Positions 10,424 through 63,973 of a stretch of DNA of 64,000 nt are shown here, one piece after another. Origin of the DNA: a virus (taxonomy: Duplodnaviria > Caudoviricetes); the IMG/VR virus record IMGVR_UViG_3300047313_000015, positions 1 through 64,000 of that record; one strand, written 5' to 3'. The notes under the pieces were generated by a model that saw nothing but the letters and a program-made list of their open reading frames with translations, was not told where the DNA came from and made no database searches. Each line of letters begins with the position of its first letter. The stretch's first letter is position 1. The translations under genes were made by a program, and so were the position numbers.

Positions 10424-10801
10424 ATGATTGAGCTGCCAGAGGCGCAGGAGATAGCGAAGGAAATTCTCCTCTCCAACCCAGACGCACGATTCGGGCCCGC
10501 GAATTGCACGTACTTCGATGATGAGCAGAAGCCACGCTGCGTTATCGGGTATGTATTCGCCAGGATCGGTATTCCGTCAAGCCTCATGAAGCCTCATTTC
10601 ATGGGCCACACCCCGAACACATCCAGGCTGGAATGCCTGATCCGCCCCACCGCCCCTGACTTTCTTTCTGTTCACTGGAACAACAGGGTCAGCCCGGCAG
10701 CCAGCGAACTCTTTGTGAAAATCCAGGATCTTCAGGACACTGGCGCATCGTGGGGCGAGGTTTACGAGCAATTCTTCGGAGGCAGTGATGAAGAGGATTA
10801 A
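10424..10801 (+). CDS. hypothetical protein (paralog of 11975-12328)
   Basis: CVIG..F.RIG and QD.G.SWGEVYE motifs shared with 11975-12328. Confidence 0.7.
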   Translation: MIELPEAQEIAKEILLSNPDARFGPANCTYFDDEQKPRCVIGYVFARIGIPSSLMKPHFMGHTPNTSRLECLIRPTAPDFLSVHWNNRVSPAASELFVKIQDLQDTGASWGEVYEQFFGGSDEED

Positions 10802-11975
10802 CAGCAAGCTTCTCAACTGGGCCAGTATTCTCGACCCAGCCACCCTGCGGCAAGCAGAGATGACGGCGCGCATGTCGTTCATCTATCCCTGGCTGGCCCT
10901 GATGGGAGACGCGCATCTGGGCAAGGGTGCTACGGTCGGCTCCGTCATCCCTACGCTGAACTGCATCATGCCTGCTGCGGTAGGCGTGGACATCGGCTGC
11001 GGCATGATCGCCCACCGTACTCGGTTCACAGTCAACGATCTTAGTCTGGCGGCCGGTGATCTATCAGATCTCCGTGTCGCTATCGAACAGTCAATCCCAT
11101 CTTCGATGGGCCGCTATAACGACAAGGTGACGAGCAAGAACACCCGTGACCTGATCAGTCGGCTGGAGGCTATGCCCGGTATAACTCAGGCGGAGGAAGT
11201 ATCACCTAATTGGCGTATGCAGTTGGGCAGCCTGGGCAGCGGCAATCATTTCATTGAGGTAACCGCTGATGAGGAAGGCCGTATCTGGCTGTTCCTGCAC
11301 TCCGGATCACGTGGTGTCGGCAACAAGCTTGCCATGAAGCACATCAAGGCCGCGCAGGAGTATACGGTGCCAGGCTACGGCAAGCCAGCTAAGTACAAGC
11401 TGGAAAGCCCTGACCTCGCATTCCTGGAGGAGGGCACGCCTCAGTTCGATGCCTACATCGAGGCGCTTCGCTGGGCACAGCAGTTCGCCCTGTTCAACCG
11501 CGAGGAGATGATGGACCGTCTGACCAGGGAGTTCGCCGGATGGATCGGAGAGCCTGTTCTGGTGGATGATAAGATCAACTGCCACCACAACTACACCGAG
11601 CGGGAAGAGCACTACGGCAAGACCGTATGGCTTTCCCGTAAGGGTGCTATCGACGCCAGCCTGGGCCGGATGGGTCTGATCCCGGGCAGCATGGGCGCAG
11701 CCAGCTATGTTGTCAGTGGACTGGGCAACCCGGAGTCGTTCAACTCATCACCGCACGGTGCTGGTCGTGTGCACAGCCGTGGCTCAGCCAAGCGCACCTT
11801 CACCCTGGAGGATCTTGAGACCAGGATGAAGGGGATCGAATGGCGCCATGACAAGGGATTCCTGGATGAGCACCCTGGTGCTTACAAGCCGGTGGAACAG
11901 GTCATGGCTGATTCCGTGGATCTCGTTACCATCGTGCACGAGCTTCACCAGCTCGTTAACGTGAAGGGGATGTAA
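10785..11975 (+). CDS. rtcB: RtcB-family RNA ligase
   Basis: DAHLGKG, VGVDIGCGM, GSGNHFIE, HSGSRG, HHN, HGAGR, AYK, VKG. Confidence 0.95.
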   Translation: MMKRINSKLLNWASILDPATLRQAEMTARMSFIYPWLALMGDAHLGKGATVGSVIPTLNCIMPAAVGVDIGCGMIAHRTRFTVNDLSLAAGDLSDLRVAIEQSIPSSMGRYNDKVTSKNTRDLISRLEAMPGITQAEEVSPNWRMQLGSLGSGNHFIEVTADEEGRIWLFLHSGSRGVGNKLAMKHIKAAQEYTVPGYGKPAKYKLESPDLAFLEEGTPQFDAYIEALRWAQQFALFNREEMMDRLTREFAGWIGEPVLVDDKINCHHNYTEREEHYGKTVWLSRKGAIDASLGRMGLIPGSMGAASYVVSGLGNPESFNSSPHGAGRVHSRGSAKRTFTLEDLETRMKGIEWRHDKGFLDEHPGAYKPVEQVMADSVDLVTIVHELHQLVNVKGM

Positions 11976-58960: not shown

Positions 58961-59302
58961 CTAAATGGATGTGGGCGTCCAGCCCGATGCTTTTAGTACG
59001 GTATAGAGAACCTGGCTAGCGCCAAGCGAGAAGTTTACCGGGAAGCTGTGAACCTCTATGAATGGCAGACCCTGCACCCGGATAAAACAGGTCCACAAAA
59101 GCTGACCCGCACTGAAGTTGTCGGACGCCAGCAAGGACGCGGAAAGGATACCGGTTCCTCCGGGCATATTGTTTCCCCGGATAATAGGGGTAACAATTGC
59201 CGCGCCGGTATCATCCGCCAGTGTGCCGCCAGCCACGAACAGCCAGTCGGCCGGTACGCCCGAGCCGAAGGCCTCAGTGAGAGTGACCAGATTGGCAGTC
59301 AT
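58961..59302 (-). CDS. hypothetical structural protein
   Basis: TAATG-coupled to the protease gene. Confidence 0.6.
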   Translation of the reverse strand: MTANLVTLTEAFGSGVPADWLFVAGGTLADDTGAAIVTPIIRGNNMPGGTGILSASLLASDNFSAGQLLWTCFIRVQGLPFIEVHSFPVNFSLGASQVLYTVLKASGWTPTSI

Positions 59303-60225
59303 TAGGCTAGCCCGCTGTCAATCTCCCACTGCTGGATAGCCGCTGCCAGGTTTCTGTCCCGGTGGCTGTAGTGGTAACGACCGGCCCATGGGCCAGCTAC
59401 CGTGTCCAGCGTAACGTCCTTCAGCAGCGGGCCTGACGGATCCGGAGTCGGCGTAGGGTCAGGCGTAGGAGTGGGGTCTGGCGGGACCGGAGTCGGCGCA
59501 GGAGCGGTTACCGGAACCGGGACGGTGCAATCGCCCTCCTCGGCCAGCAGGCGTTCCATGGTGGCGTAGGAGAAGCTGAAGGTGCCATTCAGTCCCCAGG
59601 ATTCTCCCCAGGAGTTTACCGCATAGAAAACCTTAGCCTCGGGATCTATGCCAAGAACCTCGACCTCATGGCCGCCACGGACATATGCGCTCTTGCCAAT
59701 GGCCACATAACCGTTAACATCCGGTACGTCGAAGCTGGAATACCAGTTCATCCCGATTGCGGTTGGGCCATTCTGAAGAGCCAGCTCCATTGTGGCAATG
59801 TCGGTGCAGTGCGTATATCCGGATAGCATGCCCATCTGCACAGCAGCTTTGCATCCGTCGATTCCGTCCGAGCCGGTGTCGTTCGGCGGGTATGCGCCCG
59901 GGTACGGGTCGAGGGTAGTGGCCAGCGAATAGACCTTGACCGCCAGCGCCTCGTCCAGCACCGGATGATCCTTCAGCAGGTTCTCAAATACCGGTGTCGT
60001 ACCTGTACATCCAACCACCGCATTACCGACACAGGATCCGCGATTACCCTGATCCAGCACGGGAATGCGGCGTGTCCATGCCTGAGCCACAATTCCACCG
60101 CGAGGTACTTTCGCCTGGAATGGGTAAAACGCACTGCGGGAGTCAGTATGGACATGACGGCCGAGTGGCATCCCGGCGATCTTAATCTCCGGGATGCGGC
60201 GGCGATAAATTGTTACGGTGGCCAT
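59302..60225 (-). CDS. papain-like (C1) cysteine protease
   Basis: DQG.RGSCVG (Gln/Cys), GGHEV (His), NSWGESWG.NG (Asn). Confidence 0.88.
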   Translation of the reverse strand: MATVTIYRRRIPEIKIAGMPLGRHVHTDSRSAFYPFQAKVPRGGIVAQAWTRRIPVLDQGNRGSCVGNAVVGCTGTTPVFENLLKDHPVLDEALAVKVYSLATTLDPYPGAYPPNDTGSDGIDGCKAAVQMGMLSGYTHCTDIATMELALQNGPTAIGMNWYSSFDVPDVNGYVAIGKSAYVRGGHEVEVLGIDPEAKVFYAVNSWGESWGLNGTFSFSYATMERLLAEEGDCTVPVPVTAPAPTPVPPDPTPTPDPTPTPDPSGPLLKDVTLDTVAGPWAGRYHYSHRDRNLAAAIQQWEIDSGLA

Positions 60226-61313: not shown

Positions 61314-61390
61314 CTGGCAAGTGGCGGATCGAACACCTTGAGCGCGGGGTTGGAAGCCGCGACCGGCCCAGCCGGTTTATCTACTCACCA
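61314..61390 (-). tRNA. atypical tRNA-Trp(CCA)
   Basis: TGGTGAG/CTTGCCA acceptor, loop TTCCAAC, long D hairpin, C-C mismatch in the anticodon stem. Confidence 0.5.
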
Positions 61391-61425
61391 TTGAGAGAGC
61401 TGATTTTCAGCTCTCTGTCTTACTG

Positions 61426-62190: not shown

Positions 62191-62292
62191 CTACAAGTCG
62201 CCAGCGGCCAGCTCAAGCCCGCGCAGCCACCATGGAGAGCCTTCGGGGTTCTCGTCCATCAGTTCCCAGCCTCGCTCTTTCCATGCTTCCAT
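62191..62292 (-). CDS. small protein (33 aa)
   Basis: GGGAGG RBS; MEAWKERGWELMDENPEGSPWWLRG. Confidence 0.45.
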   Translation of the reverse strand: MEAWKERGWELMDENPEGSPWWLRGLELAAGDL

Positions 62293-62310
62293 GCTTGCCT
62301 CCCTCTTACG

Positions 62311-62399
62311 TGGACCTGGCGGGATTCGAACCCGCGAGCACCACAGCGTTCAGGCGAGGGGTCTCGCTTCACCGCTGACGACTAGTCGGTTTCAGGCCC
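62311..62399 (-). ncRNA. Ala-identity, anticodon-less tRNA/tmRNA-TLD-like RNA
   Basis: GGGCCTG/CAGGTCC-A (G3.U70), T arm GCGGG-TTCGAAT-CCCGC, long hairpin in place of the anticodon arm. Confidence 0.7.
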
Positions 62400-62403
62400 T
62401 TAG

Positions 62404-63196: not shown

Positions 63197-63271
63197 CACT
63201 CCTGACAGGGGTCGAACCTGCATGATCCATTACCCTTTCATCTGGTTCGAAGCCAGAGGGGATACAGGAGC
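63197..63271 (-). tRNA. non-canonical tRNA-Arg(TCG)-like RNA with rewired D/anticodon topology
   Basis: same architecture as 62813-62889; CTGG-CTTCGAA-CCAG. Confidence 0.65.
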
Positions 63272-63283
63272 CTATATCTTACG

Positions 63284-63357
63284 CGCACCCAGAAGGACTC
63301 GAACCTTCACAAGACGCGGCTCCGCAAGCCGCCGCACGTCCCTCGTGCTGTGGATGC
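63284..63357 (-). tRNA. tRNA-Arg(GCG)
   Basis: GCGGC-TTGCGGA-GCCGC, complete cloverleaf. Confidence 0.8.
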
Positions 63358-63430
63358 TAGCCCGGAGTCTCTCTATATCCCGCCTGTCGGCTCTCCGGAT
63401 CACCTTTCGGTGCTGCCCTGCGGCAGGGGA

Positions 63431-63564
63431 CAAATGGAGGGGCGTTCTCTCCGCTGAACTATCACTCGTAACTGCACCGATATCAAATGCAGCCTCCCAG
63501 CCTACTTGCGCGCTTACTCGGCGGGAAGAGAGTGAGCCGGATTCGAACCGACGTTTCCCCTTTG
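63431..63564 (-). ncRNA. circularly permuted tRNA mimic (YrlA Y-RNA-like topology)
   Basis: order GGGG-AAAC-T arm-TCACTC...GAGTGA-TA-D arm-G-CCCC. Confidence 0.7.
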
Positions 63565-63638
63565 CGGTGACTACGGGATTTGAACCCGCGATCTTCCGGG
63601 TGACAACCGGGTGCTCTGCCTGACTGAGCTAAATCACC
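63565..63638 (-). tRNA. tRNA-Asp(GTC)
   Basis: canonical cloverleaf. Confidence 0.9.
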
Positions 63639-63724
63639 TTGGACAGTTTTGTTGTAAGGACTTCTGCCAACCTTCAGGCGGGTACTTCCATCGCAGTTTA
63701 AGAGCTACTAGTATCACCGCTTCG

Positions 63725-63805: not shown

Positions 63806-63809
63806 GGGA

Positions 63810-63894
63810 GTGAGTGCTCTTTATCGCTCTGAGCTATATCCGGACTCGCCTAGGTTACCGGTAATAGGAGCGCGCGACTGCTCCGACCTCTCAC
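63810..63894 (-). ncRNA. second circularly permuted tRNA mimic, degenerate T loop
   Basis: GTGAG-AGGTC-GGAGC..GCTCC-closed acceptor-TA-GCTC..GAGC-A-CTCAC. Confidence 0.55.
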
Positions 63895-63896
63895 CG

Positions 63897-63973
63897 TACC
63901 GATGACCGGAATCGAACCGGCAACTCCTCTGCTTGAGGGGCAGGGTGCGAACCACCAGATGGCGCGCATCGGC
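63897..63973 (-). tRNA. tRNA-Glu(CTC)
   Basis: GCCGATG/CATCGGT, loop CCCTCAA, T arm. Confidence 0.8.

What the first reader, a model, noticed from the sequence alone, without database searches (positions are those of the whole stretch)
63431..63564. Circularly permuted tRNA mimic (YrlA Y-RNA topology) directly after tRNA-Asp
Seen (minus strand): CAAA-GGGG-AAAC-[GUCGG-UUCGAAU-CCGGC]-UCACUC-(about 60 nt with two hairpins)-GAGUGA-UA-[GUUC-AGCGGAGA-GAAC]-G-CCCC-UCCA-UUUG. The tRNA 3' half comes first and the 5' half second: the acceptor is closed internally and the free ends sit where the anticodon loop would be. Known: this is the topology of bacterial YrlA Y RNAs (partners of Ro60/Rsr, often encoded near rtcB) and of permuted tRNA genes. 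No Rsr gene or obvious Ro-binding consensus is visible in the window. Inference: an elbow-mimic decoy with no anticodon loop to cleave, or a permuted precursor matured with the phage RtcB.
Basis: partly seen in the sequence, partly recalled or inferred. Interest (0 to 1): 0.8.

Follow-up and report, generated by a model that had tools for sequence, protein, structure and literature searches.

The report
Handle-less permuted tRNA mimic in phage
A soil phage's tRNA gene cluster holds an intact "back-to-front" tRNA look-alike with no anticodon loop; it has the shape of the known bacterial YrlA RNAs but lacks both the protein-binding handle and the Ro60 partner gene that related phages carry, so it is an unusual variant of a known kind of tRNA mimic, not a new kind.

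Summary
On the minus strand at 63561-63438 lies a complete circularly permuted cloverleaf: anticodon-stem 3' strand, variable loop, T arm, acceptor 3' strand, a 60-nt two-hairpin linker, acceptor 5' strand, U8-A9, D arm, G26, anticodon-stem 5' strand. It starts 3 nt after tRNA-Asp.

Related phages carry 72-nt permuted tRNA-like genes inside their tRNA arrays. These have strong covariation, a covarying terminal stem with a YrlA-like motif, and a TROVE (Ro60/Rsr) gene in 5 of 5 records. They are phage YrlA-type Y RNAs.

The window's element has the same architecture but fails YrlA membership. It has no handle, no TROVE gene in the 87%-complete record and no Rfam hit, and its D arm is of the phage tRNA-Arg type. 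One syntenic relative (L017) has a decayed homologue at the same site, and another (L015) has none.

My best reading (0.45) is a functional, non-decoding tRNA-elbow mimic released by tRNA processing. The main rival (0.3) is a remnant of a tandem tRNA duplication. Maturation into a real tRNA by RtcB is unlikely.

The parts
63565..63638 (-). tRNA-Asp(GUC), directly upstream. Its 3' processing would set the 5' end of the element.
   Evidence: ARAGORN and Rfam tRNA at 65.3 bits.
63562..63564 (-). 3-nt leader CAA between the tRNA-Asp discriminator and the element. With A63561 it can pair with UUUG 63434-63431.
   Evidence: Sequence.
63557..63561 (-). Closing helix 5' strand AGGGG, equivalent to tRNA positions 39-43.
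   Evidence: Pairs with CCCCU 63442-63438 in the MFE. In L017 the A-U pair becomes U-A.
63553..63556 (-). Variable-loop equivalent AAAC. C48 can pair with G15.
   Evidence: Sequence; scanner.
63536..63552 (-). T arm GUCGG-UUCGAAU-CCGGC.
   Evidence: The T hairpin is kept in L017 with two compensatory pairs and one broken pair.
63529..63535 (-). Acceptor 3' strand UCACUC(U).
   Evidence: Six Watson-Crick pairs with GAGUGA, plus a C1-U72 mismatch.
63469..63528 (-). 60-nt linker closing the acceptor stem. It holds two hairpins: CUUCCCGCC...GGCUGGGAGG and CUGCA...UGCAG.
   Evidence: MFE. The family model treats it as a 62-nt insertion where relatives have a 7-nt loop.
63460..63468 (-). Acceptor 5' strand (C)GAGUGA plus U8-A9. 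The predicted RNase P site is 5' of this strand.
   Evidence: Sequence. The RNase P site is inferred from M. smegmatis YrlA (PMC4201824).
63444..63459 (-). D arm GUUC-AGCGGAGA-GAAC.
   Evidence: Together with the flanking U8-A9 and G26 it is identical, 19 of 19, to the stretch TAGTTCAGCGGAGAGAACG of an ordinary phage tRNA-Arg(ACG) in L011, and the same D arm with A or G at one loop position occurs in other phage tRNA-Arg genes.
63438..63443 (-). G26 and the closing helix 3' strand CCCCU, equivalent to tRNA positions 27-31.
   Evidence: AACGCCCC is conserved in L017.
63358..63437 (-). 80-nt structured trailer (CCAUUUG, then three hairpins) reaching to the 5' end of tRNA-Arg(GCG).
   Evidence: Folds. 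It is not conserved in L017, where a canonical tRNA-Arg(UCG) occupies this place.
63283..63357 (-). tRNA-Arg(GCG). RNase P cleavage at its 5' end would bound the trailer.
   Evidence: ARAGORN.
10785..11975 (+). RtcB RNA ligase gene. This is context only; no link to the element is shown.
   Evidence: Pfam PF01139, E 2e-108.

Best explanation
The locus encodes a non-decoding, L-shaped tRNA mimic whose parts are in circularly permuted order. Its acceptor stem is closed internally by a 60-nt linker, and its free ends sit where the anticodon loop would be. This is the architecture of the tRNA-like module of YrlA Y RNAs, but here it stands alone, without the Ro60-binding handle. It most likely arose from tRNA-Arg-type genes within the array.

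Shown: the anatomy and the intact tertiary-contact residues; that related phages make YrlA-type RNAs from the same kind of array; and that the element predates the split from the L017 phage and has stayed intact in this lineage.

Inferred: it is co-transcribed with the tRNAs. Its outer ends are set by 3' processing of tRNA-Asp and by RNase P at tRNA-Arg. Because its acceptor stem is nearly tRNA-length (6 pairs plus one mismatch), RNase P and 3' trimming with CCA addition may cut out the linker, as happens to M. smegmatis YrlA. That would leave a two-piece, anticodon-less tRNA body. Through its D/T elbow it would then bind a tRNA-recognising factor, such as a host tRNA-targeting nuclease, a modification or processing enzyme, or host Rsr-associated machinery. 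It would act as a decoy or tether that can be neither decoded nor cut in an anticodon loop.
For: Anatomy and uniqueness. The cloverleaf lies within 2.6 kcal/mol of the MFE in the 207-nt context.

Family model: R1, built from relatives, matches the element end to end at 34.8 bits (E 1e-8), with the linker as an insertion.

Relatives: a 72-nt permuted tRNA-like family is found in L033, L088, L043, L097, L099, L102, L098, L095, L096 and L090. In the nine distinct sequences of the alignment counted (L090 is not in it), 95.8% of cells are paired and 11 pairs show compensatory changes. The covariation score is 0.552 against 0.168 in shuffles (0 of 500 shuffles reach it). In L043, L088, L033, L097, L099 and L102 the RNA lies among tRNA genes on the same strand. 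It matches Rfam YrlA below threshold: 32.4 bits, E 4e-5. TROVE genes occur in 5 of 5 records, and one of them has TROVE plus vWA domains.

Age and constraint: L017 has a homologous element directly after its tRNA-Asp, with the closing pair A-U changed to U-A and two compensatory T-stem pairs. The flanking functional tRNAs of the two phages are only 56-67% identical, yet the window's copy keeps every stem and every elbow residue.

Precedent: M. smegmatis YrlA, which has a 7-bp acceptor stem, is cleaved by RNase P and receives CCA (PMC4201824). YrlA folds like tRNA and is thought to bind an effector through its elbow (10.1101/312249).
Against: No transcript, processing or binding data exist. The fold energy is no better than that of shuffles (z -0.64; z 0.0 with the trailer). 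Only one homologue was found, and it has lost the D arm and the acceptor pairing. The other syntenic relative, L015, lacks the element. No partner protein was identified: there is no TROVE gene and no Pfam family in 23 of the 25 further ORFs scanned near the array and RtcB, where the only hits were a ribonucleotide reductase and a lysozyme-type protein. The R1 score does not separate it from tandem tRNAs (45.7 bits for the Ile-Ile pair). Its D stem differs from the D stem that is invariant in YrlA and in the phage family.
Confidence: 0.45

Rival explanations
1. It is an evolutionary by-product with no function. A tandem duplication of a tRNA-Arg-type gene was followed by loss of the first copy's 5' part and the second copy's 3' part. 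That leaves 3' half, spacer and 5' half, which are complementary simply because they came from paralogous tRNAs.
For: The stretch TAGTTCAGCGGAGAGAACG (U8-A9, D arm and G26) is identical, 19 of 19, to that of an ordinary phage tRNA-Arg gene. The element sits in an Arg-rich part of the array, and L017 has a canonical tRNA-Arg(UCG) immediately after its copy. Complete tandem tRNAs give the same signal (the Ile-Ile pair at 45.7 bits), and PMC4201824 discards such cases. L017's copy is decayed and L015 has none. A second, much weaker permuted arrangement at 63806-63897 is absent from L017. There is no partner gene and no thermodynamic signal.
Against: Both boundaries fall exactly at the ends of the anticodon stem, and a complete tRNA-Asp abuts the element. 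All 20 pairs and all tertiary residues are intact, although the element is older than the split from L017, across which real tRNAs have diverged to 56-67% identity. The closing helix and T stem show compensatory changes between the two phages.
Confidence: 0.3
2. It is a true Y RNA (YrlA) that works with Ro60/Rsr. The Rsr would be either the host's own or a phage copy lying in the missing 13% of the record.
For: Related phages have Rsr plus YrlA-like RNAs in their tRNA arrays. The record is 87% complete and linear. Some actinobacteria such as M. smegmatis have Rsr (PMC4201824).
Against: There is no terminal stem and no GNCGAA-type motif, because tRNA-Asp ends 3 nt upstream. No upstream-downstream helix stands out from chance. 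Rfam YrlA gives no hit at E<=10. No TROVE gene was found with the HMM or with a relative's protein. In most of the relatives checked Rsr lies within about 2 kb of the RNA in or beside the array (11 kb away in G004), and both flanks of this phage's array are present in the record.
Confidence: 0.12
3. It is a permuted pre-tRNA. Its ends are joined (for example by the phage RtcB) into a circle, and RNase P and 3' processing then open the linker to give a normal decoding tRNA, as in Cyanidioschyzon merolae.
For: The gene order (3' half, intervening sequence, 5' half) is that of permuted tRNA genes. The phage encodes RtcB, whereas the five Rsr/YrlA-bearing relatives have none. The de-permuted halves are a good tRNA body.
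Against: There is no bulge-helix-bulge motif, only a one-sided 4-nt bulge between two 4-bp helices. With CCCCU/AGGGG as the stem, no junction gives a 7-nt loop with U33. The apparent Trp anticodon CCA is out of register, the body is unlike the relatives' tRNA-Trp, and a candidate Trp(CCA) gene lies elsewhere. The phage has no splicing endonuclease. By established knowledge of these enzymes, RNase Z-type processing of tRNA-Asp would leave a 5' phosphate, which RtcB cannot use. UCCA is not conserved in L017.
Confidence: 0.07

Closest known systems
YrlA Y RNAs (Rfam RF02553; Salmonella, M. smegmatis and mycobacteriophage examples; Chen et al. 2014, PMC4201824; Wang et al. 2018, 10.1101/312249)
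   Same: The tRNA-like module is circularly permuted: T arm, internally closed acceptor stem, D arm, with the ends on the anticodon-stem side and no anticodon loop. The elbow residues are canonical. Like M. smegmatis YrlA, the acceptor stem is nearly tRNA-length. Like the YrlA-type RNAs of related phages, it lies inside a phage tRNA array.
   Different: It has no Ro60-binding terminal stem or GNCGAAN0-1G motif and no rsr gene in the record. It scores below any Rfam threshold. Its D stem is GUUC/GAAC, not the conserved GCUC/GAGC. A 60-nt two-hairpin insert closes the acceptor where relatives have a 7-nt loop. It directly abuts a tRNA.
Phage YrlA-like/TROVE family found here (L033, L088=G002, G003, L043, L097, G001, G004, G005, L096, L098)
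   Same: The order of elements and the helix lengths are the same, the T loop is identical (UUCGAAU), the U8-A9 and D-loop pattern match, and the location is within tRNA arrays of phages related through the peptidase-like gene.
   Different: Those RNAs carry a covarying 7-9-bp terminal helix plus an NCGAWG motif and have a TROVE+vWA gene nearby. The window's element has neither. Homology, as opposed to convergence from tRNA genes, is not established.
Circularly permuted tRNA genes (Cyanidioschyzon merolae and some green algae; Thermofilum pendens; recalled from the literature)
   Same: The 3' half is encoded upstream of the 5' half, with an intervening sequence across the acceptor ends.
   Different: Those genes have a bulge-helix-bulge junction cut by a splicing endonuclease, and they regenerate a normal anticodon loop. 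Neither feature is present here.
Two-piece (permuted) tmRNA and split tRNAs of Nanoarchaeum
   Same: A tRNA-like body is assembled from segments that are not in the usual order, or from two pieces.
   Different: There is no G3-U70 alanine identity, no tag reading frame, no long complementary leader/trailer, and no Rfam tmRNA hit at this locus.

Membership tests
YrlA (Rfam RF02553) | tRNA-like module in permuted order (T arm, closed acceptor stem, D arm), ends on the anticodon-stem side, no anticodon loop | tested here: met
   Sequence and fold; scanner; end-to-end match to family model R1.
YrlA (Rfam RF02553) | tRNA tertiary-contact residues that form the elbow | tested here: met
   UUCGAAU T loop, GG in the D loop, U8/A14, G15/C48 and G53-C61 read directly. 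No 3D test was possible.
YrlA (Rfam RF02553) | Terminal stem from the 5' and 3' ends carrying the Ro60-binding GNCGAAN0-1G motif | tested here: not met
   tRNA-Asp ends 3 nt upstream, and only CAAA/UUUG can pair. No flank-to-flank helix exceeds chance.
YrlA (Rfam RF02553) | Encoded with or near an rsr (TROVE) gene | tested here: not met
   No TROVE gene by HMM or with a relative's TROVE+vWA protein. The record is 87% complete, so absence from the whole phage is not proven.
YrlA (Rfam RF02553) | Score at or above the Rfam gathering threshold (69 bits) | tested here: not met
   No YrlA match even at E<=10. The relatives' RNAs reach 32.4 and 21.6 bits.
YrlA (Rfam RF02553) | Strongly conserved D stem (GCUC/GAGC) and T stem | tested here: not met
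   The D stem is GUUC/GAAC. It is invariant GCUC/GAGC in the phage family and conserved in YrlA (10.1101/312249). The last two T-stem pairs, GG/CC, are kept.
Permuted tRNA gene (C. merolae type) | 3' half upstream of the 5' half, with acceptor ends linked by an intervening sequence | tested here: met
Permuted tRNA gene (C. merolae type) | Bulge-helix-bulge motif formed by leader and trailer at the junction | tested here: not met
   Only a one-sided 4-nt bulge (UCCA) lies between GGGG/CCCC and CAAA/UUUG.
Permuted tRNA gene (C. merolae type) | The junction regenerates a 7-nt anticodon loop with U33 and a usable anticodon | tested here: not met
   Read from the sequence: with the 5-bp stem CCCCU/AGGGG, the next bases are CC. 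ARAGORN assigns a different anticodon for each artificial junction.
Permuted tRNA gene (C. merolae type) | Splicing endonuclease and ligase available | tested here: not met
   No tRNA_int_endo gene. RtcB is present. Host enzymes are unknown.
Canonical tRNA (RF00005) | Contiguous cloverleaf with an anticodon arm | tested here: not met
   Not called by ARAGORN or the Rfam tRNA model at this locus.
Two-piece tmRNA | G3-U70 alanine identity, tag reading frame, tmRNA model match | tested here: not met
   The pair is A3-U70, and no tmRNA-clan hit overlaps 63431-63564.

The most novel reading that the evidence does not exclude
The element is a Ro60-independent, free-standing tRNA mimic made from a phage tRNA operon. 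RNase P and 3' trimming split it into a two-piece, anticodon-less tRNA body. That body serves the phage as an uncleavable decoy for host tRNA-targeting defence nucleases, or as a cofactor or substrate mimic in the RtcB repair pathway. It would also be a snapshot of how Y-RNA-type mimics are born from tandem tRNA genes.
Probability: 0.2. Interest if true: 0.7.

Novelty: new variant of a known kind. Interest (0 to 1): 0.45.

Why it matters
tRNA mimics of the YrlA type are known only as partners of Ro60/Rsr, and what their tRNA-like module binds is still unknown. A phage that keeps an intact module without the Ro60 handle and without a Ro60 gene would show that the module has a job of its own, most plausibly in the conflict over tRNA cleavage and repair. 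It would also give a small, simple construct for fishing out the unknown elbow-binding partner. Its tRNA-Arg-type D arm and its position in an Arg-rich part of the array make it a possible example of how such mimics arise from tandem tRNA genes. If instead it is a duplication remnant, it is a useful warning for annotating phage tRNA arrays.

Tried and rejected
1. tRNA-Trp idea. ARAGORN finds tRNAs for 19 amino acids plus a suppressor but none for Trp, and CCA follows the stem. I rejected it because the register gives no U33 or 7-nt loop, the relatives' tRNA-Trp genes are unlike this body, and a candidate atypical Trp(CCA) gene lies at about 61318-61395.

2. 'UCCA' as an encoded NCCA 3' end. 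It is not conserved in L017 or in the YrlA-like family.

3. Flanking self-cleaving ribozyme or another known RNA. There are no Rfam hits in 63358-63564 at E<=10.

4. A hidden Ro-type handle formed with the conserved Glu-Asp spacer or the trailer. Only helices of 8 bp or less, at chance level, were found.

5. Linker-trailer alternative pairing (CUCUCUUCCCGCC with GGCGGGAUAUAGAGAG). It appears in the 207-nt MFE, but the duplex energy is not unusual: 50 of 500 shuffles do as well.

6. Partner protein DUF7873, a lead from earlier scan notes. 23 of the 25 further ORFs scanned near the array and RtcB match no Pfam family, and none matches DUF7873. I could not search by family because I lacked the accession.

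7. Homologue hunting. Exact or degenerate patterns for the T arm plus acceptor, the Glu-Asp spacer and its variants found nothing in viral or genome collections. GenBank phages gave only ordinary tRNA hits. A generic T-loop...D-arm pattern returned tandem tRNAs only. The 592-aa array ORF has no relatives.

Full report
**Setting.** The window is the first 64 kb of a 97,339-bp IMG/VR phage record that is linear and 87% complete. A minus-strand tRNA array runs from 61165 to 72282. It holds 29 ARAGORN tRNAs covering 19 amino acids plus a UUA suppressor. The phage encodes RtcB at 10785-11975 (Pfam E 2e-108). GenBank similarity points to actinobacteriophages.

**Observation.**
- The order of parts is: CAA; AGGGG; AAAC; T arm GUCGG-UUCGAAU-CCGGC; UCACUC(U); a 60-nt linker with two hairpins; (C)GAGUGA; UA; D arm GUUC-AGCGGAGA-GAAC; G; CCCCU; then CCAUUUG.
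- The RNAfold MFE of the 134 nt is this permuted cloverleaf, though its energy is not better than that of shuffles (z -0.64).
- With the 80-nt trailer added, the enforced cloverleaf lies 2.6 kcal/mol above the MFE.
- A purpose-written scanner finds it as the only hit in the genome and finds none in 20 shuffled genomes.
- The de-permuted halves are called a tRNA by ARAGORN for any junction.
- The residues needed for the L shape are all canonical: U8, A14, G15/C48, GG in the D loop, U54-U55-C56-A58, G53-C61, G26/A44, A9/A23-U12.
- A complete tRNA-Asp ends 3 nt upstream. No T arm follows before tRNA-Arg(GCG) at 63357. So these are not two overlapping ordinary tRNAs.

**Relatives carry a real family of permuted tRNA-like RNAs.**
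- *How they were found.* I used the peptidase-like ORF (59302-60225) to fetch 80 metagenome loci. The scanner found clean 72-nt permuted elements in L033, L088 and L090. A covariance model built from two of them (R1) found more in L043. After a pattern scan, it also found them in nine IMG/VR contigs.
- *Core covariation.* The core is strongly supported. 95.8% of cells are paired and 11 of 21 pairs show compensatory changes. The covariation score is 0.552, against 0.168 in shuffles (0 of 500 reach it) and 0.139 or less for slid controls.
- *Terminal helix.* The flanks form a terminal helix that covaries completely between members: TTGACAGC/GCTGTCAA, TATACCGA/TCGGTATA, GGATCTG/CAGATCC, GCGACACCG/CGGTGTCGC and CGAGGCGG/CCGCCTCG. 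It is followed by an NCGAWG motif that resembles the YrlA GNCGAAN0-1G Ro-binding motif (PMC4201824).
- *Rfam and partner gene.* Rfam YrlA matches L088 at 32.4 bits (E 4e-5, below the gathering score of 69) and L090 at 21.6 bits. All five IMG/VR records tested encode a TROVE protein, and the one I checked has TROVE plus vWA domains. In G001 the gene ends about 500 nt upstream of the RNA. In G005 it lies within about 1-2 kb, and in G002 and G003 it is adjacent across the record ends.
- *Location.* In L043, L088, L033, L097, L099 and L102 the RNAs lie inside tRNA arrays on the tRNA strand, for example Trp-Asn-RNA-Ser.
- *Conclusion.* These are phage YrlA-type Y RNAs. This kind is already described for mycobacteriophages (PMC4201824) and was noted earlier by this scan in other phages.

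**How the window's element compares.** R1 aligns it end to end at 34.8 bits (E 1e-8), with the linker as a 62-nt insertion in the acceptor loop. That score is not specific, because the complete tandem tRNA-Ile pair at G000 64934-65083 scores 45.7 bits. The element fails every YrlA feature other than the tRNA-like module itself:
- It has no terminal stem or motif, because tRNA-Asp is 3 nt away, and no flank-to-flank helix exceeds chance.
- Rfam YrlA gives no hit at E<=10.
- No TROVE gene was found by HMM or with a relative's protein.
- Its D stem is GUUC/GAAC, whereas GCUC/GAGC is invariant in the phage family and conserved in YrlA (10.1101/312249).

Together with U8-A9 and G26, its D arm is identical, 19 of 19, to that of an ordinary phage tRNA-Arg(ACG) gene. 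The same D arm recurs in other phage tRNA-Arg genes. I therefore cannot say whether it descends from the YrlA-like family or arose separately from Arg tRNA genes. The five Rsr/YrlA-bearing relatives lack RtcB, while this phage has RtcB and no Rsr. The sample is too small to interpret.

**Synteny and age.** L015 and L017 share this phage's gene order: Glu, Asp, Arg, Val, Tyr, Cys, Met, Asn, Gln, Pup, peptidase.
- L017 has a homologous element directly after its tRNA-Asp: UGGGG-AGAU-GAGAG-UUCGAUU-CCCUC ... AACG-CCCCA. Identity is 55% over the interval.
- L017's copy has lost 13 nt of the D arm and the acceptor pairing. The closing pair has changed from A-U to U-A. The T stem shows two compensatory changes and one broken pair.
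- L015 has no such element.
- The neighbouring functional tRNAs of the two phages are only 56-67% identical. The element is therefore old, and in this lineage it has kept every pair and every elbow residue. I read this as evidence of purifying selection. It rests on a single comparison.

**Mechanism.** I commit to a non-decoding tRNA-elbow mimic that is transcribed with the array and released by tRNA processing (confidence 0.45). By analogy with M. smegmatis YrlA, whose 7-bp acceptor stem makes it an RNase P substrate that then receives CCA (PMC4201824), the near-tRNA-length acceptor stem here may be opened. That would remove the linker and leave two base-paired pieces. The target of the mimic is unknown. 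A decoy or tether for a tRNA-binding factor is an inference.

**Rivals.**
- A functionless remnant of tandem tRNA duplication (0.3).
- A true Y RNA that uses host Rsr or a phage Rsr in the missing part of the record (0.12).
- A permuted pre-tRNA matured via RtcB (0.07). This is disfavoured because there is no bulge-helix-bulge motif and no junction gives U33 and a 7-nt loop. There is also no splicing endonuclease. No Rnl-type ligase or CCA-adding enzyme was found either. tRNA-Asp 3' processing would leave a 5' phosphate, which RtcB cannot use.

**Limits.** All further pattern scans for homologues were empty. No expression data exist for this uncultured phage.

**Verdict.** The element is a handle-less, insert-bearing variant of the known YrlA-type tRNA mimic, with moderate interest.

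Noticed in passing
window 63898-63973 (-): A tRNA-Glu(CUC)-like gene missed by ARAGORN and only a weak Rfam hit. It aligns with L017's tRNA-Glu(CUC) but has C at position 33 of the anticodon loop (CCCUCAA) where L017 has U (CUCUCAA).
   Followed up: partly
window 63806-63897 (-): A second, much weaker permuted arrangement: GUGAG, a non-canonical hairpin, a bulged acceptor, D arm GCUC...GAGC, then CUCAC. It lies between the Glu(CUC)-like gene and tRNA-Glu(UUC). Its MFE is no better than shuffles, R1 does not hit it, and L017 lacks it, having a 43-nt spacer there.
   Followed up: partly
window 63639-63723 (-): The 85-nt spacer between tRNA-Glu and tRNA-Asp is 81% identical to L017, more than the flanking tRNAs (56-67%). 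It folds into a conserved stem with compensatory pairs. It is a candidate small RNA or processing signal with no Rfam match.
   Followed up: partly
window about 61318-61395 (-): A candidate atypical tRNA-Trp: acceptor GGUGAGU/ACUUGCC, anticodon loop UUCCAAC (CCA), T loop UUCGAUC, and a 5-bp/3-nt hairpin in place of the D arm. No tRNA finder calls it. If real, the phage's tRNA set covers all 20 amino acids.
   Followed up: partly
L014:4934-5083 (G000 64934-65083, -): Two directly abutting complete tRNA-Ile genes (GAU and UAU/CAU type) score 45.7 bits with the permuted-tRNA model. This illustrates that tandem paralogous tRNAs mimic the YrlA signature.
   Followed up: yes
L088:12030-12190, L033:9215-9375, L043:11830-11990, L099:2290-2460 and others: The phage YrlA-like RNAs next to TROVE+vWA genes have an extra helix between the handle and the tRNA-like domain. 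They fall well below the Rfam YrlA gathering score (32 against 69 bits), so standard annotation would miss them. A second CGATGCG...TACTTC box downstream may start a second Y RNA.
   Followed up: partly
window 62311-62400 (-): A tRNA-like element with a 7-bp acceptor stem containing G3-U70 and a canonical T arm, but no normal anticodon loop. A weak beta-tmRNA hit (21.7 bits) lies beside it and overlaps only its 3' end, at 62208-62335.
   Followed up: no
window 63458-63486 (-): A sigma-70-like promoter match (TTGATA-17-GATAGT) lies inside the linker and acceptor 5' strand. One was found in the region against 0.4 expected, so it is probably chance.
   Followed up: no
G001-G005 versus G000: The five related phage records with Rsr and a YrlA-like RNA have no RtcB, whereas this phage has RtcB and no Rsr. 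The sample is too small to interpret.
   Followed up: partly
L015:161-235 and window 63197-63271 (-): The 'rewired' tRNA-Arg noted by earlier readers has a clear counterpart in the syntenic relative L015, while L017 has a canonical tRNA-Arg(UCG) at the corresponding place.
   Followed up: no
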